From NCBI GenBank assembly GCA_965644295.1, contig CBFFRP010000020.1, forward strand, positions 104,087-168,086: a DNA stretch of 64,000 nt. The letters run 5' to 3'. This DNA is from Paraphysomonas bandaiensis. Lineage: Eukaryota; Protista; Chrysophyceae. The notes beneath the pieces were generated by a model. The model was given only the letters and a program-made list of their open reading frames with translations, had not been told where the DNA came from and searched no databases. The position numbers and the translations under genes were made by a program. Of the stretch, positions 49,160-64,000 are shown in pieces (position 1 is the first letter of the stretch; the number at the start of each line of letters is the position of its first letter).

Positions 49160-50341
49160 CCCATTACTTCAGTCTTGTCGAGGGTATGTTGAGTAGTTTT
49201 TGTTGTACACTTTCGTCAGTAGCGTAGTAATATGATTTTTTTAAACGAAATTTTCAGTCGTTCTCACTTATTCGTCATAGAATCTTCTGCTCTGAGGAAT
49301 GCTATTCGTTGGGACTGCATACTCTATATCTATATATTTGCTACGGTGATGTATTCTGACGGATTTTAGTGGATATTTGTATAGTTATGATGTGAACACA
49401 GTTTGAATCAGATTTTGAGTACAGTACAATGGTAGATACTTTAACTGCTTTATTGAGACGATAGTTTCACAGATTAACGAAATGACGACTGAAATTTTAC
49501 ATACGTAGTATGGCTCAGGGCTCTGCAAAAATATCTTGATTGGTGAACTGGTCAAAAATTCTATCAATATTGTTTCTGTTAAAGTAGTTCACAATATATA
49601 TTGATATGGAAAGCTTCTTAACTGTAAAGTGCAGAATATAGGTCCATGTATCACGTATTCTCTTTGCCTTCCACTTTCCAGCGTAGTGGGTTTGGTTAGT
49701 TTAGTTACCCTGCTATCTGTTATCATGTACTATGTGATAATGACTATAGTACTAAAAATAGATTCTATGGATGTGTTTACGTGCTTACATTCGGTAATGA
49801 TACTAATATATTGCAATAGTATTGTTGGTCCGGTTTAACACCTTCATCAATATTATTGATGACATGATGCTATAGCATTGCCATATATTGTTCCATATCT
49901 CTGATATTGCTGAGATATTGTAACACCTGCGTTTGTACATATACTTTACACGTCGCTGAAATGCTAAGACACACACAGAGAGAGGGGGGGGGGGTCTTCG
50001 ACCCTAGCCGTGTTAACCGTGACCATAAAAACTATTAATTTACACCAACCCTTACCCCTATGGTATCGCTGTGTATCACGTACAAGTGCTTCCAATATTG
50101 TACATTACATTTTTTTATACACTTTTTTACATAAAAAATGTCGTGTCACCTTTCACAATAAAAAATGCAAAAAAAATGTTATTTTCACAAATTTTGCAAC
50201 AGTATACACTACATTTTTTACAACATTTTTCTTAAAAAAAAACTTTTTTCTAAAAAATAAATATCAGAAATAAATATTTTCAACAAAAATGTCAAAAAAA
50301 ATGCAATCAAAATAAAATAATACTATACATATTAACCCCAG

Positions 50342-50405
50342 CGATCAACCGACCCTATTAACCAAACGATCAACCGACCCTATTAACAAACGATAGACCA
50401 ACCCT
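50342..50405 (+). repeat. Direct repeats of ~25 bp in the presumed terminal region
   Basis: CGATCAACCGACCCTATTAAC(C)AAA twice, plus a degenerate third copy CGATAGACCAACCCT. Confidence 0.85.
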
Positions 50406-50495
50406 GACTTAAACACCGAACAATTACAACAGATAGACGGAACAACAGACCTGTTTAACACTATATATAGACATGCCGTGATTTTACTCCCTGTT

Positions 50496-50548
50496 TTACA
50501 TATGTAAGAATATAAAATAATTAAAAAAAAATATATAGTTATATTATA
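50496..50548 (+). promoter_or_regulatory. Viral promoter cassette, duplicated at 51394-51447
   Basis: Palindrome TTACATATGTAA followed by AATATAAAATAATT..AAAAAAATATATAGT..ATATTATA directly before the ATG at both loci. Confidence 0.75.
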
Positions 50549-50980
50549 ATGTCAAAAGAATTAAAATATTTTAGTTGTTGTGAAAATGTTGATTCCGAGC
50601 GTAACGGTAAGTACTACTACAAACATAAAAAGTACATTCATAATGATCCATTTGACTGTCTAAAACATAAGTTAAATAGGCCAGCTGATGAAGTCAATGA
50701 TATAATAAGCAAACGGTTTGAAAAGGGTTTTTTAAGTAGCAATTTTTTTACTTTTAGACCAGTAAACAATACACCTGAATGTTACGATTGGCATGAAAAA
50801 TTTATTATTAAATCAGGTTTAAGAGAAAACGAATGTGATGATGTTCAAGATGAATTTTATCTTAAAAATAAGTTTTGGGAATCAGTTGTTTATATCATTG
50901 AAAATGACGGCGATAAAGAGAAAATGGAAACGGATAAGTGGGTATATTCAATGAATGCTATTGATAAACTAACGTTTTAA
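50549..50980 (+). CDS. PLV hypothetical protein (143 aa)
   Basis: ORF preceded by the conserved viral promoter motif; AT-rich codon use. Confidence 0.75.
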   Translation: MSKELKYFSCCENVDSERNGKYYYKHKKYIHNDPFDCLKHKLNRPADEVNDIISKRFEKGFLSSNFFTFRPVNNTPECYDWHEKFIIKSGLRENECDDVQDEFYLKNKFWESVVYIIENDGDKEKMETDKWVYSMNAIDKLTF

Positions 50981-51019
50981 AAACATTATAGAATTATTTT
51001 TTTGTAATGATACATTATA

Positions 51020-51349
51020 ATGTCAAAGGCCGAAAGTAATAAATTTTTCTTTATGGAAATGGAAGGTAAAATTTTTAGTGTTAAACGTGATCACAAAACA
51101 AACGTACAGGACGAAATAGAACAAGGCAAAAAGGAAATGAACATTTTAATAGATAAACAGAATAGCATAAAAGAAGAATTATTAAAACTTAACAATAAAA
51201 TAAGTGATAAAAAAATGTCTTTGTTAACAAAGAGGCAGCTATTAGAATTATACCGCGGCAAGAGACGCATACCGTGCTTGAATTTATTCAAAAAAAATGT
51301 TACCGATGTTTATATTGATGATGACACAGACAGCGACGAGGACTGTTAA
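51020..51349 (+). CDS. PLV small coiled-coil protein (paralog of 51448-51732)
   Basis: ATTATA-ATG context; MEGKIFSVKRDH..VQDEI..LLTKRQLLELY. Confidence 0.75.
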   Translation: MSKAESNKFFFMEMEGKIFSVKRDHKTNVQDEIEQGKKEMNILIDKQNSIKEELLKLNNKISDKKMSLLTKRQLLELYRGKRRIPCLNLFKKNVTDVYIDDDTDSDEDC

Positions 51350-51447
51350 CAGCAATGAAACATTGACCATTAAATTATAATTTATTTCAATTATTACATA
51401 TGTAAAAATATAAAATAATTTAAAAAAATATATAGTCATATATTATA

Positions 51448-51732
51448 ATGAGTGAGTATTTATTAAAGTTGAAAGGTGAAGTATACAGTATTAGAAAAAC
51501 GCATATGCCAAAAATTCAGGAAGAGATAAGGAATTTAGACAGAGAAATAGAAGATATGAAAATTACATTATCAGAACTTCAGAAACAAAAGAAAGAGTTA
51601 CAAGTAGAGCTATTAAATGAACGGCAATTAATCATATATGAAAATAAAGACGAAGATAAAAGGACTGAATTATTAAGAAAATATGATTTTCTACACGGTG
51701 AATATCGCAGTGATTCTGTAGGATGGAAATAA
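51448..51732 (+). CDS. PLV small coiled-coil protein (paralog of 51020-51349)
   Basis: Preceded by the promoter cassette; LKGEVYSIRKTH..IQEEI..LLNERQLIIY. Confidence 0.75.
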   Translation: MSEYLLKLKGEVYSIRKTHMPKIQEEIRNLDREIEDMKITLSELQKQKKELQVELLNERQLIIYENKDEDKRTELLRKYDFLHGEYRSDSVGWK

Positions 51733-51774
51733 AATATTATAAAAAAATGCAACTGATAAACTGATAAGGTAAAT

Positions 51775-51817
51775 TAAGGGATAAAAATCCCTAAATTTTC
51801 GGGGAAATTATCCCTTA
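51775..51817 (+). terminator. Intergenic hairpin (putative transcription-end signal)
   Basis: Perfect 10-bp stem TAAGGGATAA / TTATCCCTTA, extended by an inner TCCC/GGGA pairing. Lies between the terminal ORF cluster and the capsid module. Confidence 0.6.
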
Positions 51818-51857
51818 GATGTAAAATATATAAATATATTATGTGATATACTTATAT

Positions 51858-52088
51858 ATGGACGGCCTTGAATGGGAAATAAACTATGATAATTATGAAT
51901 TTCCAAAAAAAAATATTATAGACTTAGACAGAGTGATTAACTTAGACACACCAAAATTAAACAGAAATAATAATATAGATACAGACATGTTGACTTATGA
52001 TTTTGCAGAAATAAAAATATCTAATAATGTTAATGGAGAAAATACAGATTGTTCTAAACAGCAAGACAGCAAACCAATACCTAAATAA
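51858..52088 (+). CDS. PLV small hypothetical protein (76 aa) overlapping the minor capsid start
   Basis: ATG 51858 after TATAT, in frame with the track ORF 51843-52088. Confidence 0.5.
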   Translation: MDGLEWEINYDNYEFPKKNIIDLDRVINLDTPKLNRNNNIDTDMLTYDFAEIKISNNVNGENTDCSKQQDSKPIPK

Positions 52089-52764
52089 TAAAACTACTGA
52101 TTGTATTTTTATATTACCAAAGATAGATGTTAAACGACGTCATAAAGCCTATATATCAGTAATTGATGCCTCTATCCCATATTCATTTTATAATGTTAAT
52201 TCAACCAATAACACACTGAATTATACATTAAATAGTATCCCATATTCACTTACAATTACAAAAGCCAATTATAATATTAGAACTTTAATAAGTTTTTTAC
52301 AGTCCAATTTAGAGCCAGGATTTACAATAACTTATAACTCATCAACTAATAAATTACAATTTACCCATAGTACTTATGATTTTTCTTTTTCAAATACTTC
52401 AACCTGTTTTGAATTATTAGGATTTGAAGATAATACAACCTATTATTCAGATTCATTAATATTATTATCAACAATTGGTATAAATTTATTTACAGTAAGA
52501 AACGTTTTAATAGCATCGTCAAATTTTGTTTTAAATAATATAAATAGTGCCACACCTAATAAAGCCTCTATTATTACCTCTGTACCTGTTGATGTTAACG
52601 CAGGATCTATTATTAATTATAAAAATATTAATAATATTAAGAGCTTAGTACATGATATACATAATATAAATACTCTACATGTCCAATTATTAGACCAAGA
52701 CGCAGATATATTAGAATTAAACGGTTTACATTGGTCTTTAAATTTATTATTAACTATTGAATAA
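52027..52764 (+). CDS. Minor capsid protein (penton, single jelly roll)
   Basis: ISVIDASIPYSFYNVNSTNN, ITKANYN, ITYNSSTNKLQF, ELLGF, SVPVDVNAGSIINY and LHVQLLDQD..LELNGLHWSLNL match the PLV/virophage penton pattern. Start may be ATG 52033. Confidence 0.85.
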   Translation: MLMEKIQIVLNSKTANQYLNNKTTDCIFILPKIDVKRRHKAYISVIDASIPYSFYNVNSTNNTLNYTLNSIPYSLTITKANYNIRTLISFLQSNLEPGFTITYNSSTNKLQFTHSTYDFSFSNTSTCFELLGFEDNTTYYSDSLILLSTIGINLFTVRNVLIASSNFVLNNINSATPNKASIITSVPVDVNAGSIINYKNINNIKSLVHDIHNINTLHVQLLDQDADILELNGLHWSLNLLLTIE

Positions 52765-52794
52765 AAAATATTTCTCTCAATATAGTATATATAC

Positions 52795-53235
52795 ATGTCA
52801 AAACTAGGCAAAAAGCTAAATCGTAAATTTCGTAAACTAGGTCGTAAGGCCGATCACAGAATACATAAACTAGGACAAAAAACACACGACGTATTAGACA
52901 AGGTTCAGAGTGGAGTAAATAAAGGACTTGATAAATCAGCAAAGGCAATTAACGTAGCAGATAAAATATTAGGCGTCGGTGATAAAACTATACACGCTAT
53001 TAATAAAGCAGGATTAAATACAATGCCCGTTGTTGGATCAGCATCTAGACTATTGGAAGCAGGATTACACGAAGGACATAAAGGAGTACATAAGCTACAT
53101 AAGCTACACAATAAAGCCGATAAACACAGTAAACAAGCATTTAAAAAGGCTCATAACGCAGGTAATAAATTAGAAAAACACAACACAAGAAAAGCTTTAG
53201 CTAAGTTAACACAAGATGACAGCACATTTATATAA
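52795..53235 (+). CDS. Highly basic Lys/His-rich protein between the capsid genes (candidate core or membrane-lytic protein)
   Basis: MSKLGKKLNRKFRKLGRKADHRIHKLGQK..., amphipathic helices, position between mCP and MCP. Confidence 0.7.
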   Translation: MSKLGKKLNRKFRKLGRKADHRIHKLGQKTHDVLDKVQSGVNKGLDKSAKAINVADKILGVGDKTIHAINKAGLNTMPVVGSASRLLEAGLHEGHKGVHKLHKLHNKADKHSKQAFKKAHNAGNKLEKHNTRKALAKLTQDDSTFI

Positions 53236-53283
53236 ATTATATTTTATTATACTATAAAAAATATTTATCTATTTATAGTATAT

Positions 53284-54633
53284 ATGTCAGGATTACCAAA
53301 AAACGTATTATATACAAATAATATAAATTCAAGTTATGCGCGTAATTATCAGAATAATATAGCTCCACAAAATGGTTTGGGGCCATATGGTGCAGGAGAG
53401 ACCATAATTATTAATATTCCTACCGGTCGTAATCTCGTAATGTCTGGTGCTGATTCACTTTTAAAATTAAGCTTAATAGTAAACACAGCAACAACTACGG
53501 CGGTTTCAGAATTCGTAAGACTAGATAAAGCCGGTATTCATTCCCTAATTTCTAGAGTGCGAGTATTTCATGGCTCTACTTTACTTTCAGATATTCAGAA
53601 TTATAATAATCTAGTCGGTGAGCTCATGGCTTTGCAACAGTCTAACGACTCTTTTATTAACAAACACACAATTTTATCAGGAACGGAAAGTTTCAGTATT
53701 GTTGACAGCACAACAAGCACAAACGAGGGTTTAATTGTTGGTGAAAGACTTAATGAATTCACACAAGTTGCAGATGGGGGCAGTACAACTAAACGATATT
53801 ATACAGTACCAATAATGAATTTTTTAAGCTACAGTGATAAATATATTCCACTGTTCGCAATGACCGGCGCACCTTTACGACTAGAAATAGTTCTGGTTAA
53901 TAATCCATTAGAGGGCATTTGTTGCGATAAAGCCATAGATTCAATAGCTATTAATGACGTTGAATATGTTTGTAATTTTATGGAGTTATCAGATGACGCA
54001 ATGAATAAAATTAATTTGGCATCAAATGGACCTTTAAGGTGGGTTGTACAAGATTACAGAAATTATTCACATACTGGAAATATTGCCGCTAACGTTGAAC
54101 TTAGTGTTCCCGTACCCGCTAAATATAACTCTTTAAGATCTCTATTTTTCAGTATGCGTGATAAACACGCTGGAGCAGTCACCTATTTCCCTCTGTCATC
54201 AAATCATTTCGGTCTAGAGTCATACAGTGTTAGATTAGGTAGTAAGACCGTACCAACTAAAGCACCTAGTTGCCTTCCTGAATTTTTCGGCGAATTGATC
54301 AGAGCAATTGGAAGCGTAAGCGATTTGAATCATGAACCAAGCATTAATATAAATACTTATGATATGCAAGCGTCAGCAGCCAATAGCGAGACAGCAGCCG
54401 ATTATGACGGGTGTGCAGTATCATCCAACTTTTATTTAGGTTTAGATCTAGAAAGTTACAGCAGCTCAGGCATGGAAACAGTTTACCAGGGTTATAACAG
54501 TAGCACTGACGATATATTTTTTATGCCTCGTTTTTCCTCAAGTGCCCCCACTGTGACCGCACGCATAGATACATACGCTTATTTTGATCAAGTCATTTTG
54601 ATTGAAAACGGTTTTGCAACATTGCAATATTAA
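53284..54633 (+). CDS. Major capsid protein (double jelly roll, PLV type), intact 449 aa
   Basis: IAPQNG..Y.AGETIIINIP, IHSLISRVRVFHGSTLLSDIQNYNNL, KYIPLFAM..LRLEI, SLRSLFFS, FYLGLDLE, YAYFDQVILI. Size and synteny with the penton gene agree. Confidence 0.9.
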   Translation: MSGLPKNVLYTNNINSSYARNYQNNIAPQNGLGPYGAGETIIINIPTGRNLVMSGADSLLKLSLIVNTATTTAVSEFVRLDKAGIHSLISRVRVFHGSTLLSDIQNYNNLVGELMALQQSNDSFINKHTILSGTESFSIVDSTTSTNEGLIVGERLNEFTQVADGGSTTKRYYTVPIMNFLSYSDKYIPLFAMTGAPLRLEIVLVNNPLEGICCDKAIDSIAINDVEYVCNFMELSDDAMNKINLASNGPLRWVVQDYRNYSHTGNIAANVELSVPVPAKYNSLRSLFFSMRDKHAGAVTYFPLSSNHFGLESYSVRLGSKTVPTKAPSCLPEFFGELIRAIGSVSDLNHEPSININTYDMQASAANSETAADYDGCAVSSNFYLGLDLESYSSSGMETVYQGYNSSTDDIFFMPRFSSSAPTVTARIDTYAYFDQVILIENGFATLQY

Positions 54634-54716
54634 ATTTATAAAAAACCTTTAGATTTTTAAAAAAATAAAAAATTAAAAAATTTATTATTTAAAAAATAAT
54701 ATATATTTGTATATTA

Positions 54717-57700
54717 ATGAGTACAAAAGAGAGTTTTGAAGAGTTTGATTTAGAACACCTTGATAACCTGACTTATGAACAGTTGTAACTTTTCTGTGCC
54801 CGCAGATGACTCACAAACCGTGACTCAACTCTGAATGGACCAAGAAAAGATGATCTCTTGTCTAGACTCTACAACCCACCAAAATAGTATCCGCCAGCGG
54901 GCTGCGATACTGTCCAGGGCGCAACGACGGGCGCACTGCCAGAAACACTAACAAACCGTAGGTGCTCTTTAAGAAAAGTAAATTATAAAGTCAGTGACAA
55001 GAATGAGCAAACACCCATCTCGTTCAACGTAGATCAACACTACACTACGATCAACACTTCACACTCGAAAAACAATATTCACGTACTAAAACCAATATTC
55101 ACATACGAAAACTTCGACTATCTACGAAATCACGTATTTTGTACTAAAACTTCGAAGTTCTGGACTTCAGTCCAAATCAAATGTGAATCGCCGTCAGAAA
55201 CTGAAAAACGTATCTCAGCTACTAAACTGAAAACCTCGAATGTCGTAAACTGATAAAGGTAAGTCCCAAATACAGTGAATATACCCTGTATATGACAACC
55301 TCTATATGCATATGTATACCATATATATACCATATACTGCTCCAGATATATGCGATATATACACACTATATACAGCACAGTATTCTATATACAAATACAC
55401 GCAGTGTATACTGCTGCGTGACACTACCCTCTTTTTCCTTCCAACGGATAAGAGATTCCGGAAATTAGGAAAATTCTAAATTAAGAGAGGATATTGGGAA
55501 ATCTGGCACAGACGGCGGAGTCTACCAGAACCATGGTGTCAGGGTTAAAATCTTGTGTAGTTCCATAGTTCTGGATAGGCTGACCATTCAAAAGTAGAGT
55601 TAAAGAGAGAACAATACACATCAATAGTGATCCTTTTGCGGCCCGCCCAACGCTTATAGACACATTGAACTACATAAAGAGTATCATATGCATTAGGTAA
55701 TTCTAAAGCGTCATAGAAGTCTGCACCCCACGCTCGAAGATTAACAAAGACAACGTCTCCAGGTATGACAGTGGATATAACACACTTCTTGAGTTTAGTC
55801 TTCTGTTGCACTGCTTCCTTTGCAGTAAAACGTAAGGGAAACAATTCAGGGACACTGAAAATATATTCATGAAAAGATTCACTTGTCGCAAGATCAGTAG
55901 AATATGGCATCCACAACAACGATTGATCGGAGAAGAGAACTCTGAAATCCATAGTAGTTCTTTTTTCGGGGTCCCCTCTATAAGCCACCACTTTGTCAAG
56001 AAAAAATTGCCTATAGTCAATCATTGCTATGCGAAAAGCCTCCTCCTTGCTACCAAAGAATGGCTTCAACCAGGACATATGTAACGTTACATCAAACCGC
56101 ATTACTAAATGAGTACAAATAACATCGGCCTTGTACGTGGATACTACTTCATACGGTCCTTTGAATCGAGGATATAATTTGGACGGCTTATGTTTCGTTA
56201 CATCCAGTTTAAACAAAACAAGCTGGCCTGGTTGATATTGATTCATTTTCTCTGCTGGGGTTTTGGACATACGTTTATTCTGAATTTTCTTCTGAACTTC
56301 ACACGCAATTTTCCTGATAGCTTTAAGGTTATCATTGAAATTGGAAATATAAGTCGAAGAAGCAAATTCATCTGAAGAACTGTCAGGGATATGAAAATAC
56401 TTTGAATCCATTGTTCCAAACGTAAACTCAAAAGGTGAAAGACCCGTCTCACTTGAAATTTCATCGTTGAGAATGAATTGTATCAACAAATAGCATTCTG
56501 GGTCACTCCAATTTTCTAATCTTTCGTCATGAACCAATGCACTAAGAAAACGCAATAATTCCCGATTACTTCGTTCCACCATGTTGGACTCACGTCTATT
56601 CACTAACGACATTCTAAAGCGGACTCCAAACCATTTCAGGAGTAACTGAACAACCCTAGCTGTGATATTCGAACCTGGATCCGATACCATCACTTCAGAA
56701 ATCCCATATGTGACAAAGTAACTGAACAAAGCACGTGCCACTCCCTCTGCTGAGTAATTACGAGCTGGATATATTCCTACTAGGCGAGATGGTAATTGTT
56801 TCACCACATGAATACAACAATAACCATTAGCATCTACCGGAGTAACAGTCAATGTATCGAAACCCACAAAATGTCTGCAATTATCAAGATTTAATGCTCT
56901 TATCGGTGCTTGCAACGATGTACTCATATCATAACCTAACTTTTGACAAATAGGACATCGATCAATAAAATCTTGGATAATTTCTGTTGTCAAGGTATGA
57001 CCCGGAAATACCTTACTAAGTTTCAACCATGTTCTCTTAGCTCCACGATGACCCATTCTACCATTGTGTACTAGATCAAAAGCTTCTTTTAGAGACTTTG
57101 GCTGTAAATTCTGATTAGCTAACTCATCCAAGGCTTTGACTAGTTCCTCTGGGAATTCTGAAACACAAGCAAGATCTTCTGCCTCCGCTGACAACATACC
57201 ACTCTCATCATACATAAAAAGTTGGTCTTCCGACAACAGACTAGAATTCTCATACTCCACTCCTAGACACAATTCAATATCTGAACATGAATCTTGAAGA
57301 CACATATCTAACAACATGACACAAGAAGCTGCTCTCTCCTGTCCCATTCTTGATAACCAATCCGCGAAACGATTTAGTTTACCTTTGAAATGTAACCAAT
57401 CCATATCAAAGTTTTGCATGAACATTCTCATTCGAACTATTCGGTCAACCACTGAAATTTCCATCCACTTTAGATTTGCATGATCCGTCATAATCGTAAA
57501 GTGTTTTCCTCTCAAGTAGTACGACAACTTAAAGATAGAATAGAATATACCAAAACATTCCTTGTTTATAGTTGACCATTTGAAAGCAAGATCTTAAAAT
57601 TTTTTAGAAACCATAGAAAGAAATCAAGTACATTCTCTTGTTGAGATATTGACACACAGACTCAATACCCACATCATAGATAGCCTTTTTTGTCGACTGG

Positions 57701-60700
57701 AAATCTGTATAACACTTACATGGAAAAGGAAACCTGGAAATTATATAAAACATCAAGTTAACTGCAGAACTTCCATGTTGAACTTTGACTCATTGATTCC
57801 CACATAGTTACTCAGAACAATGTATAACCACCAGTTTTGATACACTCATAGAATCAATTTTCAACTCAGGAATACATAGCATCTGATAGTTCTCTGACAT
57901 TAGAGTTCGAACAACAGACTTTCTATCACATCACTGACACAGGATCTCACTCATTACCCTGAACTGTTTGAGAAGTGACAACCTCGAAAGAATTTTACAT
58001 TCCAAGAAAATAATATAATATCATCAAACTCAAACAACTTATTTTGAATCAAGGAATTCAAAATTGTAGGTACATTTCAAATACCATCACAATAGCACTC
58101 TGGAAGTTTAGATACCACCGAACAAAATATTTTCAGTAACCTTCTTGTACTCAACACTTCAAGTTTAAATGCAAAGAACCGTTGAAAAAACTAACAACAT
58201 CTCTCTTGTCTTTTGAAGAAAACATCACTTTCACTCGCATCACATTCTGAATCTCACAATATCACCACCATACTGACAAGCAATGTAATCGGAGATAACT
58301 CCTGATGAAGAACAATGAATGTCGAAAACACTCCCTCACAGAAGAATCTGCTCTCACTTGATTCAAAATTTCAATTGGCAATAGACATTCAAACTCTCTC
58401 AATACAATTGCAGCACAATACCAGACACATGTGCAACAACACTGTCCACAGAATGAACTATGTATATCATCGAACAATGTATCCAACTTGGAAAACTTAT
58501 GAACGATAATGTCACGAGAAGATTCACGTAATTTGACAAGATGGCTCCCATTTAATCTGTAACACGTTTGAAACATTTTCAAGAAACTTCAGAAACTCCT
58601 CTTGCAACCATCATTGAAATGAAATTAAACAGTATGACGTTACATCATTGGCCAACATACTATTGAACTCACTGACAGAATTTTCGCTCTTAACTCTCAG
58701 TCTAACTCAATACAACTTTAGTATTTTGACACCTCACTTTGCAAAACACAAACTTCAACTCTCAAAACAAATCTGAACTTCAAACAATTGAACAACTCAA
58801 TAGTAATGGACTCTCAAATCGAAAACATTAATCATATATATCTCATCGAAATTATTGAACAACAAATAAATCAAACTGAACCAGAAAAGAAACAATCGCT
58901 AATATTGAATAGCTCATTCTCGATTATATACAATATATAGTATTATATAAGTATCATCGGTATATAGTATAGGTAAAATGATATCACGTATGTCGAATCT
59001 GTACAATTTGAAACACAGGCTCATTGAACTCTCCATTCCAGGAATACAAAGAAAACTCCACCGGCCTTGCTTCTACAATATCTTAATATATATGAACATA
59101 AAATATGATACAAATTCACAACTGACTCTCGCACCCACATCGAACACATTCACATTGACGCCATGAAACATCACTCAATCATTTGAACACTGCACCCCAT
59201 GTAGACACTCCACAACAAACTGCTGTTGACTAGCTTCTCTGCTCAACACACACTTGATTCTAAGAACATAGTATTCACTGACAACATATGTTCGAATTGA
59301 CTCTGGTGTAGACACTCATCACAACAAACTGAATTTGAACTGACAAAATATCGGACAAAATATTTACAATACAATACAATCTCTCCATCGCAAGCATTGC
59401 ACAACGAATCCTCTGAGACAGAAACTCATGAAGACATTCGTTACAATACAACACTATCTCACATCCAAACCGAAATGAAATGAATAGGCACACTGATGAT
59501 AATGTAACTCCATTAGTAATACAACATCAACATCTGGTACAACCACATTTCATTATTCCAACAGGTTGAACTTAGAATTGAAAAAGACACACCGATTTGG
59601 CAATAGGCGGTCCAGGACCATGCTCATCGCACAACACAAGTTCTTTAAAACACACGTCTAGTTTCTCAACCATCATTTTACAGTAAAGAAAACTGACCAC
59701 TTCAAGCTGACTCAATGACAACACAACATGCTCTTCCATAATCTGTCCTAGCACTGCACAATAGCTTAATGGAATCAATGTACCACTAGCAACCATGGCA
59801 TTCCATATGGCTAATTGAACGATTGAGACAACAGATGAATCACAGCCAATATCGTCCTTGACAGTAGGTTCCTCATGTGAAAGCTGATTCACTGAAACAA
59901 CCGGTACAGAAGAACAACCATTGAATTGCACAACAGGTCCATCGATCTGCTGCTCCTGATCAATCTTTGAGACAACATTGCTTATCATCTTCTCAACAAG
60001 TATCACAACATCTGACTCAACATGCACGGGGCTAATGCACTGTTCCTTGACACACATAACAGGGCATTCCACTTCTGAGTCCACGTTCTGAGGGGAATTT
60101 GAATCCTTATCATAAGAATCAGGAAACACTGAAAAACTATTCTCCACCTCAGCAGGTAATTCCATAATATCAGAGACAACAATATCTTGCATTAACAAAG
60201 GCTCCACCTTGGCAGAATTGATACTCTCAATATGAACATCCGAAGGCTGATTCACAACGCAAACAACTTCCTTGACTTTTGAATCATCAAATGGAATTTG
60301 GGAAATTTCCTTTACAGGAAGAGGTGAAACTTTTTCTTTGGAAACAACTGAAGCTACTGGTGAAGTCCTCCGAGATCTTATCTCTTCGACTGCTGTAAGA
60401 CGTTGAGTAACTTCCACTCGAAACTCATTGAAATTCTCCTCCTGCCTTAGCTGTTGCTGATTAAGCTGATGCATGTCCTCCCGAAGCTGTTGCTGAATAT
60501 CGTCCCGAAGCTGCTGATTTTGCTGTTGAATCTCATCCCGAAGCTCGTCTCTTAGTTGCTGAAATTGTTGACTGAACATGTTGACCATGTCTTGGAAGCC
60601 TTGAGGCTCCATGGCTCAATCACACGAAAACTAAACACACTTATCTCTTGGGCTCAATATATATTAACTTGGTACAAATATACTGCTAAGCTAAGCTAAG

Positions 60701-62816
60701 TAATATTACTGTAACTTTTCTGTGCCCGCAGATGACTCACAAACCGTGACTCAACTCTGAATGGACCAAGAAAAGATGATCTCTTGTCTAGACTCTACAA
60801 CCCACCAAAATAGTATCCGCCAGCGGGCTGCGATACTGTCCAGGGCGCAACGACGGGCGCACTGCCAGAAACACTAACAAACCGTAGGTGCTCTTTAAGA
60901 AAAGTAAATTATAAAGTCAGTGACAAGAATGAGCAAACACCCATCTCGTTCAACGTAGATCAACACTACACTACGATCAACACTTCACACTCGAAAAACA
61001 ATATTCACGTACTAAAACCAATATTCACATACGAAAACTTCGACTATCTACGAAATCACGTATTTTGTACTAAAACTTCGAAGTTCTGGACTTCAGTCCA
61101 AATCAAATGTGAATCGCCGTCAGAAACTGAAAAACGTATCTCAGCTACTAAACTGAAAACCTCGAATGTCGTAAACTGATAAAGGTAAGTCCCAAATACA
61201 GTGAATATACCCTGTATATGACAACCTCTATATGCATATGTATACCATATATATACCATATACTGCTCCAGATATATGCGATATATACACACTATATACA
61301 GCACAGTATTCTATATACAAATACACGCAGTGTATACTGCTGCGTGACACAGTCCAAAGCTTACGTAACAAATTATTTTTTCCCACTTACAAACGGCGCA
61401 CATGCACTTAGAACAGGACATAAAAAATTTAGCATTATGGAACACAAAAAAGTTAAAGAAACGTATTTTAACAGAATGGATAAACGGATAGCAAAATATT
61501 ATTTCACTGAATTTAAAGGGCTTCGTAAAATGGTTTATGAGCTTGGCAAAGGTATATTCCCTGATAAAAAGAAATTAAATTTAGCCGCTCAGTTTGCACA
61601 TGACTATAAACCATATGAAGACTTTGATGATGAGAGTAAGGAAGGTGTACAGGCGTTTTTATCATATATTAAAGAAATATTGGCATCCAATGATCAGGTA
61701 CAATATGAATATTTATTAAAGTGGTTTGCCAATATGACAAAGGGTAATAAAAACGAATCTATCATTTTCCTAAAAGGTCCTCAGGGCATAGGTAAATCAA
61801 CCATATCCCTATTTATGAATACTTACGTACTTGGCCGTGACCTGTGTTTAGAAGCTGGCGCGGACGTATTGACATCTAAATTTAATTCAGATCTAGGAGG
61901 TAAATTATTTGTATATTTTGAAGAATTAGAAAAACAAAGCAGGGCTGATTGGGACGCAATCAATACTAAATTAAAACGATATACGACGAGCGACGTTTAT
62001 ATAATAAATCCAAAGCATGAGTCAACATATCAGGCTGCAAATATTAATAATTATTTAATTAATGCAAATTATAGTTTAAATGAAGAATGCGGAAGAAGGT
62101 ATTTTATTTGTGATGTTTGTTGTAAAAAACGTAATGACTTAAAATATTTTGGATGGCTACGTAATCTATGCTTTAATAACGAGGTAGGACATGCTTTTTA
62201 CTGTTATTTAATGGAATACAACACAGAAAAATTTTATAGTCAAAATTTCCCTATCACAAAAAACAAGTTAGACGCATACGCCAAGAGATTAGGAAGCGTT
62301 GAAATGTTTTTAAAGGATGAATTTGTATTAAAGAGATTGGATATAAATAATATACTTGTTAAAGAAATATTTAACCATTATATCCAGTATTGCACTCAAA
62401 ATAATATTAAACCAGTTAAACATACAATTGATTTTAATAAGGTCATGAGTGAATTAAATTTTATTCACAAAAAGAATAAAGATAGGCGTAATGTGTACAA
62501 TGTTACATTAGACGAATTAAATAAAGTTTCTGAATCTTTACATTGGGTTCATGAATTAGATGAATATGATGATGGCCCTGATGTAGAATATAATATTAAA
62601 GATAAAATTAAAAAACGTTGCAATACAAATACCATTACAAGCGCTATTAAAAAGATTAGCAATAAACAAAGCGATAAAACAGATGAAGATACAGATGATG
62701 ATACAGATGAAGATGAAGATGAAGATACAGATGAAGATGATGATGAAGATGAAACACCCCGTGTAAGTCAGAAGACAGTGAAAGATATAATGAAAACTTA
62801 CGGAATAAATATTTAA
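54717..62816 (+). CDS. SF3/D5-like helicase, interrupted after codon 22 by the LTR element (54717-54783 joined to 61354-62816 = 509 aa)
   Basis: Walker A GPQGIGKS, Walker B VYFEE, motif C INAN, GRRYF. MSTKESFEEFDLEHLDNLTYEQ joins SKAYVTNYFF in frame once the element and one TSD are removed. Confidence 0.9.
54784..55423 (-). repeat. 3' LTR
   Basis: TGTAACTTTT...GCGTGACA, identical by eye to 60710-61349. Confidence 0.95.
55424..55442 (-). other. Polypurine tract
   Basis: Minus strand GGAAGGAAAAAGAGGGTAG abuts the 3' LTR. Confidence 0.85.
55545..57620 (-). CDS. pol remnant: partial RNase H, integrase (HHCC, DDE, GPY/F), chromodomain-like and extra C-terminal domain
   Basis: WSTINKECFGI..FTIMTDHANL..ADWLSR (RNase H); H..GH..CPIC; FDTL / SDPGSN / VERSN; KLYPRFKGPYEV; LDKVVAYRG..FRVLF..WMP. 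In-frame TAA at 57594-57596; open for 660+ codons downstream of it. Confidence 0.88.
59572..60612 (-). CDS. Gag-position ORF (Gln-rich coiled-coil N-terminus)
   Basis: 346-aa ORF starting ~100 bp inside the 5' LTR boundary. No zinc knuckle recognised. Confidence 0.6.
   Translation of the reverse strand: MEPQGFQDMVNMFSQQFQQLRDELRDEIQQQNQQLRDDIQQQLREDMHQLNQQQLRQEENFNEFRVEVTQRLTAVEEIRSRRTSPVASVVSKEKVSPLPVKEISQIPFDDSKVKEVVCVVNQPSDVHIESINSAKVEPLLMQDIVVSDIMELPAEVENSFSVFPDSYDKDSNSPQNVDSEVECPVMCVKEQCISPVHVESDVVILVEKMISNVVSKIDQEQQIDGPVVQFNGCSSVPVVSVNQLSHEEPTVKDDIGCDSSVVSIVQLAIWNAMVASGTLIPLSYCAVLGQIMEEHVVLSLSQLEVVSFLYCKMMVEKLDVCFKELVLCDEHGPGPPIAKSVCLFQF
60710..61349 (-). repeat. 5' LTR
   Basis: 640 bp, identical by eye to 54784-55423. 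Confidence 0.95.
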
Positions 62817-62865
62817 AAAAATAAAAAATAATTTATTTAAAAAATTAATATATAAATATATATTA

Positions 62866-63120
62866 ATGAGAGATAAATTTATAGTAGAAATATATGATAA
62901 TAATAATAATCTGATTACATCACAACACTTTACATCCTATAAAGCAATAGCACAGGAATACGATATACAATATTCAGAAGCTAGGAAACTTAACGCTTTA
63001 TGTGAGTCACGTACAACATGTAAATACTTACATCCATCATTAAAGCGACTGATTAACAGAATAAAAATTTATGATATTAATAATATAAATAATTATGATA
63101 TTAAAAAAATAAAAATTTAA
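62866..63120 (+). CDS. PLV small protein, NUMOD1/HTH-like DNA-binding candidate
   Basis: VEIYDNNNNLITSQHFTSYKAIAQEYDI resembles NUMOD1. Conserved upstream motif TTATTTAAAAAATTAATATATA..TATATTA-ATG. Confidence 0.65.
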   Translation: MRDKFIVEIYDNNNNLITSQHFTSYKAIAQEYDIQYSEARKLNALCESRTTCKYLHPSLKRLINRIKIYDINNINNYDIKKIKI

Positions 63121-63152
63121 TTATTTAAAAAATTAATATATAGTATATATTA

Positions 63153-63485
63153 ATGGACAAATATAAGTTTTATAAGATTGATGAGAAGGACTTTAAAAAC
63201 TCAGTTGAAATTACGACCAGATTCAGACACAGAAAGAAAGGTAAAGAATTAGACGTTCCTGATATGCACTTTTTATATAATATGGTTGAGGAAAACTTAC
63301 CAGAAGATGCCAATATAATGGTTAGAGCGTTAAATGGTCATAGATACTTTACATTTAAAGGGTATACTAGTTACCAGCTGAACGTGCAGGATTTTGATGA
63401 CTATTATAAAAGCTCAGTCAAGAATACTGAGAAATTTGAGAAGTTTGAATTTATTGATATAACGGTGTTCATGTCTACGACATGA
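63153..63485 (+). CDS. PLV hypothetical protein (110 aa)
   Basis: ORF with the same upstream motif as 62866 and 63576. Confidence 0.72.
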   Translation: MDKYKFYKIDEKDFKNSVEITTRFRHRKKGKELDVPDMHFLYNMVEENLPEDANIMVRALNGHRYFTFKGYTSYQLNVQDFDDYYKSSVKNTEKFEKFEFIDITVFMSTT

Positions 63486-63575
63486 TCCATACGTTAACTC
63501 CTGTTTTTATGGAAAAATAAATAATTAAAAAATTAAAAAATTAAATATTTAAAAAATAATATATAGTATATATTA

Positions 63576-64000
63576 ATGAGCTATATATTATTTTGTCGTT
63601 TGCTTTCCGGTTTTAGAATATTTGACACAAGCGTTAAAGAATTTAAGACTATAAATAAATATCCTAGTGAACATCACAGCTTTGAATTAATGAAAGGATA
63701 TGAACCAACTGATGAAGACTTAAAAAGATACGCAGAGGATTTTAAAAAGTGGTGCGATGAACTAAAGGACCCTGAAAATTTTCTTACTATAGACTATTCT
63801 AATTATGTTTCTCATTCTTACGCAGTGAGAAATACATATAAACGCATGAAAAAGAATAAGTTTAAAAATGTAAAGGAAATAACATTTAGTAAAGTAACAA
63901 AAGCAGAACACTTTTATATGTCACAGTGCAATAATGGACCTTTAATGTACTGTCAGCAATATCAAGGGCCATGTTTTGGATATGATTACAGCCAGTATTA
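63576..64000 (+). CDS. Probable protein-primed family B DNA polymerase, N-terminal part (cut by window end)
   Basis: Open for 141 codons from ATG 63576. Ends ...FYMSQCNNGPLMYC..GPCFGYDYSQY, resembling the YxGG region and the start of PolB motif A (YDxxSxYP). Confidence 0.65.
   Translation, partial: MSYILFCRLLSGFRIFDTSVKEFKTINKYPSEHHSFELMKGYEPTDEDLKRYAEDFKKWCDELKDPENFLTIDYSNYVSHSYAVRNTYKRMKKNKFKNVKEITFSKVTKAEHFYMSQCNNGPLMYCQQYQGPCFGYDYSQY

What the first reader, a model, noticed from the sequence alone, without database searches (positions are those of the whole stretch)
50496..63578. Two promoter classes in the provirus, one resembling the giant-virus late TCTA motif
Seen: non-structural genes (50549, 51448, 54717, 62866, 63153, 63576) share TTAAAAAA-(W)-ATATATA..ATATT(AT)A directly before the ATG. 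The capsid genes instead have AT-flanked TATCTA: TCTA at 52020-52023 (9 nt before ATG 52033) and 53268-53271 (12 nt before the MCP ATG), with a TCTC variant before 52795. Known: AT-flanked TCTA is the CroV late promoter also used by mavirus. Inference: a staged programme in which capsid genes depend on a co-infecting giant virus, i.e. a virophage-like lifestyle and possible antiviral defence.
Basis: partly seen in the sequence, partly recalled or inferred. Interest (0 to 1): 0.75.

Follow-up and report, generated by a model that had tools for sequence, protein, structure and literature searches.

The report
Giant-virus-style promoters in protist provirus
A small virus integrated in the genome of a marine single-celled eukaryote has two kinds of AT-rich signal just before its genes, one matching the published late-gene signal of mimiviruses, so its genes are likely switched on by a co-infecting giant virus, though the four-letter TCTA word is not capsid-specific in relatives.

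Summary
The sequence observation holds. Six genes of an integrated polinton-like virus (PLV) carry TTAAAAAA..ATATA with TTAAA at -27 to -29 (6 hits in 64 kb, 0.09 expected). TCTA lies before the penton and major capsid (MCP) genes. The interpretation needs changing. In 49 related elements TCTA is not capsid-specific (21/99 capsid vs 14/58 replication genes, p=0.69), and none of the 6 closest MCP relatives has it at -20..-11. What is conserved is the published mimivirus late layout, W8-TCT-N4-W5-RTAKA, with a free fourth base: 58/386 genes vs 3.9 in shuffles, on replication genes too. In the window it matches perfectly before 52795 and the MCP gene but not before the penton. Both classes share a proximal TATAGT-ATAT box. 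TTAAA near -28 leaned to replication genes in the discovery set (16/57 vs 16/194) but only partly replicated in a hold-out set (7/39 vs 7/48; ACTTAA 5/39 vs 0/48). Verdict: the promoters are likely read by a giant virus; a two-stage programme is possible but unproven; antiviral defence is untested. The helicase gene is split by a young LTR element. This scan noted TCTA-type promoters in PLVs of other genomes before.

The parts
49977..50520 (.). Left terminal non-coding region of the element (likely terminal inverted repeat; starts AGAGAG then a G run). The right end is outside the window.
   Evidence: sequence; GC drop to 0.27-0.28; related ends in run contigs; AG-rich polinton ends are recalled, not tested
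50521..50548 (+). Class-1 promoter-like motif, TTAAA at -28
50549..50980 (+). Orphan gene g1, 143 aa
   Evidence: no homologue in 109 loci; contig in an RNA library (X18)
51020..51349 (+). Orphan gene g2, 109 aa, without either motif; absent from some copies
51420..51447 (+). Class-1 motif, TTAAA at -28; part of a 48-nt repeat (83%) shared with the g1 upstream region
51448..51732 (+). Orphan coiled-coil gene g3, 94 aa
51858..52088 (+). Small conserved gene (76 aa) overlapping the penton start; holds the penton TCTA in its coding sequence
   Evidence: cluster of 7 loci
52020..52023 (+). TCTA at -13 from ATG 52033; likely a remnant of the TATCT box seen before 4 of the 5 closest penton genes; no match to the full late consensus even at 2 mismatches
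52033..52764 (+). Likely minor capsid (penton) gene; second in-frame ATG at 52027
   Evidence: DUF5901; 92-member cluster lying between ATPase and MCP in relatives; fold not run
52765..52789 (+). Perfect match to the mimivirus late consensus W8-T[AC]T-N4-W5-RTAKA (TCT core at -22)
52795..53235 (+). Conserved basic 146-aa gene between penton and MCP; inferred virion or core protein
   Evidence: 24-member cluster; no Pfam family above cut-off
53258..53282 (+). Perfect match to the mimivirus late consensus (TAT core at -18; TCT core at -16 with 1 mismatch); holds TCTA 53268-53271
53284..54633 (+). Double jelly-roll major capsid protein gene, 449 aa
   Evidence: model pLDDT 87; Foldseek to giant-virus MCPs, TM about 0.6; 382 homologues
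54689..54716 (+). Class-1 motif, TTAAA at -28
54717..54783 (+). 5' stub (22 codons) of the SF3 helicase gene
54784..61349 (-). LTR retrotransposon (integrase-bearing) inserted in the helicase gene; two identical 640-nt LTRs (54784-55423, 60710-61349), 4-nt target duplication
61350..62816 (+). 3' part of the SF3 (D5-like) helicase gene
   Evidence: DUF5906 E 2e-14
62837..62865 (+). Class-1 motif, TTAAA at -29
62866..63120 (+). 84-aa gene, homologue in L016
63125..63152 (+). Class-1 motif, TTAAA at -28
63153..63485 (+). 110-aa gene, homologue in L016 (30% identity)
63549..63575 (+). Class-1 motif, TTAAA at -27
63576..64000 (+). 5' part of a likely short B-family DNA polymerase gene (runs off the window)
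   Evidence: 408-aa homologue at 87%; polymerase-like motifs read by eye in alignment; no Pfam or PDB hit; model too poor to use

Best explanation
The element is an integrated polinton-like virus whose AT-rich upstream signals match the published mimivirus late-promoter layout and are likely read by the RNA polymerase of a co-infecting giant virus. Shown: the motifs, their fixed distance from the ATG, their absence from 50 kb of host DNA and their enrichment in relatives. The layout is an optional TTAAA near -28, a T(C/A)T core at -16 to -22, a short spacer, and a TATA-like box touching the ATG. Inferred: this is one post-replicative promoter family; in this copy the replication and terminal genes use the TTAAA/A-tract form and the capsid-module genes the T-rich TCT form, probably tuning timing or strength; the strong likeness within each form is partly due to copying of promoter cassettes inside the element. 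Inferred: the provirus stays mostly silent until a giant virus supplies the machinery, as for mavirus. This copy is probably unable to replicate on its own gene set because its helicase is interrupted.
For: Published consensus W8-T[AC]T-N4-W5-RTAKA (PMC11464507, passage) has 3 perfect matches in 64 kb (0.05 expected); the 2 on + are before 52795 and MCP; 2 of 3 capsid-module genes, P=0.0004-0.003. In 386 conserved genes of 49 related elements the TCT-core form (at most 1 mismatch) is in 58, against 3.9+-2.0 shuffled and 7 on the reverse strand; TCT 58 vs TGT 20 vs next core 11, spacer 4 gives 58 vs 18 and 13 for spacers 3 and 5. Hold-out loci: TCT form in 30 of 152 labelled genes, TGT 5, ACA 0. 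WWTCT peaks at -21..-16 (157/386 vs 88+-6). Giant-virus loci with TFIIB and the AAAATTGA early motif show TTAAA near -28 (27 gene families: 0.26 vs 0.15 upstream, p=0.018) and WWTCT (0.18 vs 0.045, p=0.026). No RNA polymerase or late transcription factor among 34+68 representative proteins of relatives. Precedent: only EMALEs with the CroV late motif are reactivated by CroV (PMC10945749, passages).
Against: The consensus is AT-rich: 1 of the 3 perfect matches is on the minus strand with no gene behind it, and over all 11 genes 2 perfect matches is borderline (P=0.05-0.07). Only 58 of 386 genes (15%) carry the TCT form, and spacer 6 also scores 37. The penton, 51020, 51858 and 63576 genes do not match within 1 mismatch. 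In the giant-virus sample the exact 4-nt spacer did not stand out (TCT 24, ACA 16; spacer 7 gave 39); those loci are syntenic around one gene and are not shown to infect this host. Relatives share ancestry, so counts are not independent. Some PLVs replicate alone in the nucleus (TSV; 10.64898/2026.06.19.733378, passage). An RNA library holds contigs of g1, g2 and g3, which would also fit host transcription. No transcription start site was mapped.
Confidence: 0.6

Rival explanations
1. A true two-stage helper programme: TTAAA(-28) plus the shared TATA box is an intermediate-stage giant-virus promoter for replication genes, and the TCT form is the late promoter for capsid genes.
For: TTAAA at -27..-29 in 6 of 6 class-1 genes and 0 of 5 others. 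Discovery set: 16/57 replication vs 16/194 structural genes (p=4e-4), MCP 0/47; ACTTAA 9/57 vs 0/194 (p=1e-6, best of 100 six-mers). L016 keeps TTAAA at -27..-29 in all four syntenic genes if the helicase starts at its second Met. Hold-out ACTTAA 5/39 vs 0/48 (p=0.016). Zamilon expresses replication genes before morphogenesis genes by an unknown signal (PMC11464507); poxvirus intermediate and late promoters share an initiator and differ upstream (PMC5294985).
Against: Hold-out family loci: TTAAA -33..-24 7/39 vs 7/48 (p=0.77); paired helicase/polymerase vs MCP 2/8 vs 2/8. The TCT form is at least as common before replication genes in the hold-out (21/87 vs 9/65), often in tandem with TTAAA. 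No timing data.
Confidence: 0.3
2. Class 1 is a host RNA polymerase II TATA-type promoter giving helper-independent expression of the replication and terminal genes; only the capsid module waits for a helper.
For: TTAAAAA near -28 is at a TATA-box-like distance (recalled). A metatranscriptome run has three contigs 99%+ alike inside g1, g2 and g3 (X18).
Against: g2 has no class-1 motif yet is covered; depth is 2.6-4.5 and contigs cannot rank genes; DNA carry-over is not excluded. Neither motif occurs in 50 kb of host DNA and six host or retrotransposon ATGs look different. The same TTAAA position occurs in giant-virus loci.
Confidence: 0.2
3. The two classes are only a by-product of recent copying of promoter cassettes within modules of different origin; all genes use one promoter type with no difference in timing.
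For: Upstream regions form repeat families: g1/g3 (48 nt, 83%), 52795/MCP (52 nt, 77%) and the helicase-polymerase module; g1 and g2 are missing as cassettes in some copies; close relatives have far less uniform promoters.
Against: TTAAA position is kept in L016 at 44% MCP identity and skews to replication genes in unrelated helicase families. This rival is compatible with the best explanation.
Confidence: 0.35
4. Chance patterns in very AT-rich, short intergenic DNA.
For: TCTA alone is near chance in relatives (69/386 vs 58+-6, shuffle maximum 78).
Against: Class-1 motif 6 vs 0.09 expected; core, spacer and strand specificity of the TCT form.
Confidence: 0.05

Closest known systems
Megamimivirinae late promoter, also used by Sputnik and Zamilon virophages (consensus [AT]8 T[AC]T N4 [AT]5 [AG]TA[TG]A; PMC11464507, PMC11998528)
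   Same: Perfect matches before 52795 and MCP; family-wide enrichment of core and spacer; present on replication genes too, as for early-expressed Sputnik genes.
   Different: Here on a polinton-like virus, not a virophage; helper unknown; an extra TTAAA near -28 on part of the genes.
CroV / ChlorV late motif TCTA, mavirus and type-4 EMALEs (PMC8547959, PMC10945749, PMC13196603, PMC5294985)
   Same: AT-flanked TCT shortly before the ATG of an integrated small DNA virus in a marine protist; retrotransposon inserted inside the provirus.
   Different: The fourth base is free in this family (A55, C42, T36, G22); TCTA is not fixed before capsid genes; the insert is an LTR element, not a Ngaro; MCP is not mavirus-like (TM 0.43).
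Gezel-14T (PgVV), helper-dependent PLV of Phaeocystis globosa (10.1101/2022.07.28.501842)
   Same: PLV sharing promoter motifs with giant viruses.
   Different: Gezel carries the early AAAATTGA motif; this family has it in only 2 of 386 genes and carries a late-type layout instead.
Poxvirus and ASFV intermediate/late promoters (PMC5294985, PMC12917281)
   Same: Bipartite design: AT-rich upstream core plus an initiator at the start; ASFV late genes need TATA at the initiation site.
   Different: Analogy only; no sequence identity tested and no start site mapped.

Membership tests
Polinton-like virus (PLV) | Double jelly-roll major capsid protein | tested here: met
Polinton-like virus (PLV) | Minor capsid (penton) gene beside the MCP | tested here: inconclusive
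   DUF5901 hit and conserved position; fold not run
Polinton-like virus (PLV) | A32-like packaging ATPase | tested here: inconclusive
   Present in relatives (Pox_A32) just upstream of the 51858-like gene, absent at that place in the window; the element runs off the window
Polinton-like virus (PLV) | Replication module (SF3 helicase and/or B-family polymerase) | tested here: met
   helicase domain, interrupted; polymerase only by motif
Polinton-like virus (PLV) | Terminal inverted repeats, target duplication, integrase | not testable with these tools
   right end outside the window; no genome held; relatives have rve integrases
Virophage (mavirus/Sputnik class) | Virophage-type MCP and maturation protease | tested here: not met
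   best fold matches are giant-virus MCPs; mavirus TM 0.43, Sputnik 0.56; no protease among proteins scanned
CroV-type TCTA late promoter | Fixed tetramer TCTA shortly before the ATG of late genes | tested here: not met
   7/47 MCP, 5/40 penton, 10/58 replication genes at -20..-11; fourth base free. The -20..-11 range is recalled from the CroV genome paper, which was not held
Megamimivirinae-type late promoter | W8-T[AC]T-N4-W5-RTAKA within 100 nt of the ATG | tested here: met
   (met for 52795 and MCP; not for the penton)
Megamimivirinae-type late promoter | Late expression driven by the giant-virus machinery | not testable with these tools
   only assembled contigs of RNA runs, no infection series
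Helper-dependent antiviral provirus | Reactivation by, and inhibition of, a giant virus | not testable with these tools
   needs culture

The most novel reading that the evidence does not exclude
TTAAA near -28 joined to a TATA box at the ATG is the so far undescribed intermediate-stage promoter of mimivirus-like giant viruses, and a large PLV family has copied both it and the late TCT promoter, so that the helper's own cascade fires PLV replication genes first and capsid genes later.
Probability: 0.25. Interest if true: 0.75.

Novelty: new variant of a known kind. Interest (0 to 1): 0.45.

Why it matters
For most PLVs it is unknown whether they need a giant virus. A late-type giant-virus promoter across a widespread, uncultured PLV family would be a sequence test for helper dependence and a way to look for the helper. 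My searches found late motifs in print for virophages and an early motif for one PLV, but no late-type motif for a PLV and no TTAAA(-28) element; the library is incomplete. A review passage says no intermediate promoter was described for mimiviruses as of 2017. The result also warns against reading a bare TCTA as a capsid or CroV signal.

Tried and rejected
TCTA as a capsid-specific signal: rejected. Early motif AAAATTGA in the family: 2 of 386 genes vs 1.4 expected. The window's exact class-1 string in relatives: 3 of 386, all before ATPase genes; a near-exact class-1 pattern found 0 matches in viral contigs. Single-sequence locus scans with MCP and helicase found nothing; the polymerase alignment gave only an already held contig. 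The polymerase model had pLDDT 41 and was not used. Atlas look-ups gave no result. A capsid search of long contigs reached 2 of 5 records and found nothing, controls silent. RNA: X17, X18 and X19 have no contigs over the capsid module while DNA run X1 covers all 30 bins; this absence is no evidence (contigs only, low depth, X17 and X19 only guessed to be RNA). Only 49900-54660 was laid, so the helicase-polymerase module has no read data. Transcript-end hairpins: one hairpin of 12+ pairs in the element; 3 of 6 intergenic pieces fold with z below -2; no general rule shown. PMC12945077 has no passage on promoters. The MCP tree is the quick version only. No PLV subgroup was assigned. Several long loci showed no peak for either motif.
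Full report
What the region is. From about 49977 the GC content falls from about 0.40 to 0.27 and intron-rich eukaryotic genes (myosin, MGAT4, Sec6) give way to compact plus-strand ORFs. The 449-aa ORF at 53284 folds as a double jelly-roll capsid protein (pLDDT 87; best matches giant-virus MCPs at TM about 0.6) and has 382 database homologues. Relatives carry an A32 ATPase, lipase-like, helicase, integrase and polymerase genes. It is an integrated polinton-like virus. The host is likely a marine stramenopile: the one myosin homologue with an organism name is from a brown-alga record (57% over half the query) and marine runs hold the DNA. An LTR retrotransposon with identical 640-nt LTRs sits at 54784-61349 inside the helicase gene. 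The ATPase is missing from the place where close relatives have it; the element runs off the window and no genome is held.

Observation. The coordinates are right. The class-1 pattern has 6 matches in 64 kb, all before the named ATGs, against 0.09 expected; TTAAA starts at -27 to -29 in these six and in none of the other five genes. TCTA before 2 of 3 capsid-module genes is modest (P 0.051 or 0.007 by background). The classes are not separate near the ATG: TATAGT-ATAT is shared by four class-1 genes, 52795 and the MCP gene. The penton TCTA lies in the coding sequence of a conserved small gene.

Relatives, discovery set. An alignment of 36 MCPs fetched 29 metagenome loci and the best 80 of 134 viral loci. 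They collapse to 52 groups at 85% MCP identity, the window included; starts were refined by homology, truncated ORFs and those with under 60 nt upstream were dropped (622 to 606), leaving 386 genes in families of 3 or more, from 49 elements. TCTA at -30..-8 is in 69 of 386 against 58+-6 shuffled, with a small peak at -17/-16 (24 hits), and does not separate capsid (21/99) from replication or integration genes (14/58, p=0.69). WWTCT is in 157 of 386 against 88+-6, peaks at -21..-16, leans to capsid genes (51/99 vs 19/58, p=0.03) and has a free fourth base. None of the 6 closest MCP relatives has TCTA at -20..-11, while 4 of the 5 closest pentons have TATCT at -16..-19, mostly followed by C.

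A better match. PMC11464507 gives the Megamimivirinae late consensus as W8-T[AC]T-N4-W5-RTAKA. The window has 3 perfect matches: before 52795, before the MCP, and one on the minus strand with no gene behind it. The penton does not match. In relatives the TCT-core form is in 58 of 386 genes against 3.9+-2.0 shuffled and 7 reversed, with core and spacer specificity (TGT 20; spacers 3, 5 and 6 give 18, 13 and 37). It is on capsid (21/99) and replication genes (10/58) alike.

The second class. TTAAA at -33..-24 is in 16 of 57 replication and 16 of 194 structural genes (p=4e-4), in 0 of 47 MCP genes; ACTTAA was the top discriminating six-mer, 9/57 vs 0/194. L016, with the same helicase-62866-63153-polymerase module, has TTAAA at -27..-29 in all four if the helicase starts at its second Met, and has TCTA before two of them; L034 has TCTA before its helicase and none before MCP or penton. 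For a hold-out I took 124 new loci found with other proteins, dropped 15 that overlapped the discovery set and kept 72 groups, 19 with a family MCP or penton hit (labels by best BLAST hit, so some are loose). With motifs fixed beforehand, TTAAA did not replicate in family loci (7/39 vs 7/48), ACTTAA did (5/39 vs 0/48, p=0.016; all loci 9/87 vs 0/65, p=0.01), TCTA showed no class bias (3/39 vs 4/48), and the late TCT form was in 21/87 replication and 9/65 structural genes against 5 and 0 for TGT and ACA controls. Paired within elements, TTAAA favoured replication genes 11 to 5 (14 ties) and 8 to 3 (14 ties); helicase or polymerase against MCP was 8/18 vs 1/18 in discovery and 2/8 vs 2/8 in hold-out. 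So the class split is sharp in this copy and soft in the family. Promoter cassette copying explains part of the sharpness.

Giant viruses. A giant-virus-like contig (ribonucleotide reductase, RFC, helicase) seeded the best 80 of at least 601 loci; 55 of at least 8 kb gave 48 groups and 609 conserved genes. They encode TFIIB and show AAAATTGA at -52..-41, TTAAA peaking at -28..-25, WWTCT at -24..-17 and TATATA near the ATG. Per gene family (27), TTAAA and WWTCT exceed upstream controls (p 0.02-0.03). The exact 4-nt spacer did not stand out. These loci are syntenic and not linked to this host, so they show only that the same words occur at the same places in giant viruses.

Expression. One run on record as RNA has three contigs, 99%+ alike, inside g1, g2 and g3 at depth 2.6-4.5; two runs guessed to be RNA hold end-region and g3 pieces. 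Contigs cannot show strand, start or level.

Mechanism. Shown: motifs, positions, enrichment, absence from host DNA. Inferred: reading by a giant-virus RNA polymerase after its DNA replication (0.6); a real two-stage order (0.3); host Pol II use of class 1 (0.2). Antiviral defence rests only on analogy with mavirus and EMALE04 and Tetraselmis PLVs.

Papers. Passages found by term search: PMC8547959, 10.1101/2022.07.28.501842, 10.64898/2026.07.28.741278, PMC11464507, PMC5294985, PMC13196603, 10.1101/2025.10.09.676808, 10.64898/2026.10.09.758095, PMC12917281, PMC8400408, PMC10945749, PMC11998528; passages and section 6 of 10.64898/2026.06.19.733378; PMC12945077 had no promoter passage. The CroV genome paper was not held; its -11 to -20 position is recalled. 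Motif logos in figures and supplements (EMALE motifs, mesomimivirus motifs of the Gezel preprint, Halocafeteria Fig. S7 and Table S6, ChlorV Fig. S6) were not seen and may already show a TTAAA- or TCT-type motif. Earlier notes of this scan report TCTA- or TCT-type promoters in PLVs of other genomes, seen after my own counts; none held the TTAAA words and none matched this MCP.

Verdict. A real, orderly promoter code of giant-virus late type in an endogenous PLV; the TCTA-equals-capsid reading is wrong as stated; the two-stage reading stays open.

Noticed in passing
window 54784-61349: Young LTR retrotransposon (0 of 640 LTR differences, 4-nt target duplication) inside the PLV helicase gene, a parallel to Ngaro elements inside Cafeteria virophages.
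   Followed up: partly
window 51733-51857: A G+C-richer hairpin (z -2.6) lies where close relatives carry the packaging ATPase; contigs of X17 and X19 skip 51729-51775. Possible rearrangement junction.
   Followed up: partly
window 50527-51392: DNA run X1 shows copies lacking g1 or g2 as whole cassettes (joints 50527-50954 and 50982-51376), so the left-end orphan genes are exchangeable.
   Followed up: no
window 63576-64000; P0121; L034:13801-15015; L016:2-385: Family of about 400-aa proteins with B-family polymerase-like motifs and no room for an exonuclease domain; no Pfam or PDB hit.
   Followed up: partly
window 62857-62881, minus strand: Perfect late-consensus match facing away over the start of gene 62866, with no ORF behind it; chance or antisense.
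   Followed up: no
L235-L312, ribonucleotide reductase small subunit genes: 41 of 48 giant-virus genes have WWTCT at -26..-14 and 23 of 48 TTAAA at -33..-24, often as TTAAAATCT followed by TATATT.
   Followed up: partly
L003:5324-7771; L023:1974-2828: Close MCP relatives are flanked by eukaryote-type genes (protein kinase, pseudouridine synthase), so they too are likely endogenous.
   Followed up: no
L047:4731-5486; L034:1366-1944: Relatives carry a TET-associated glycosyltransferase and a SET-domain gene.
   Followed up: no
window 50337-50400: Short direct repeats (25 nt, 92%) in the left terminal region.
   Followed up: no
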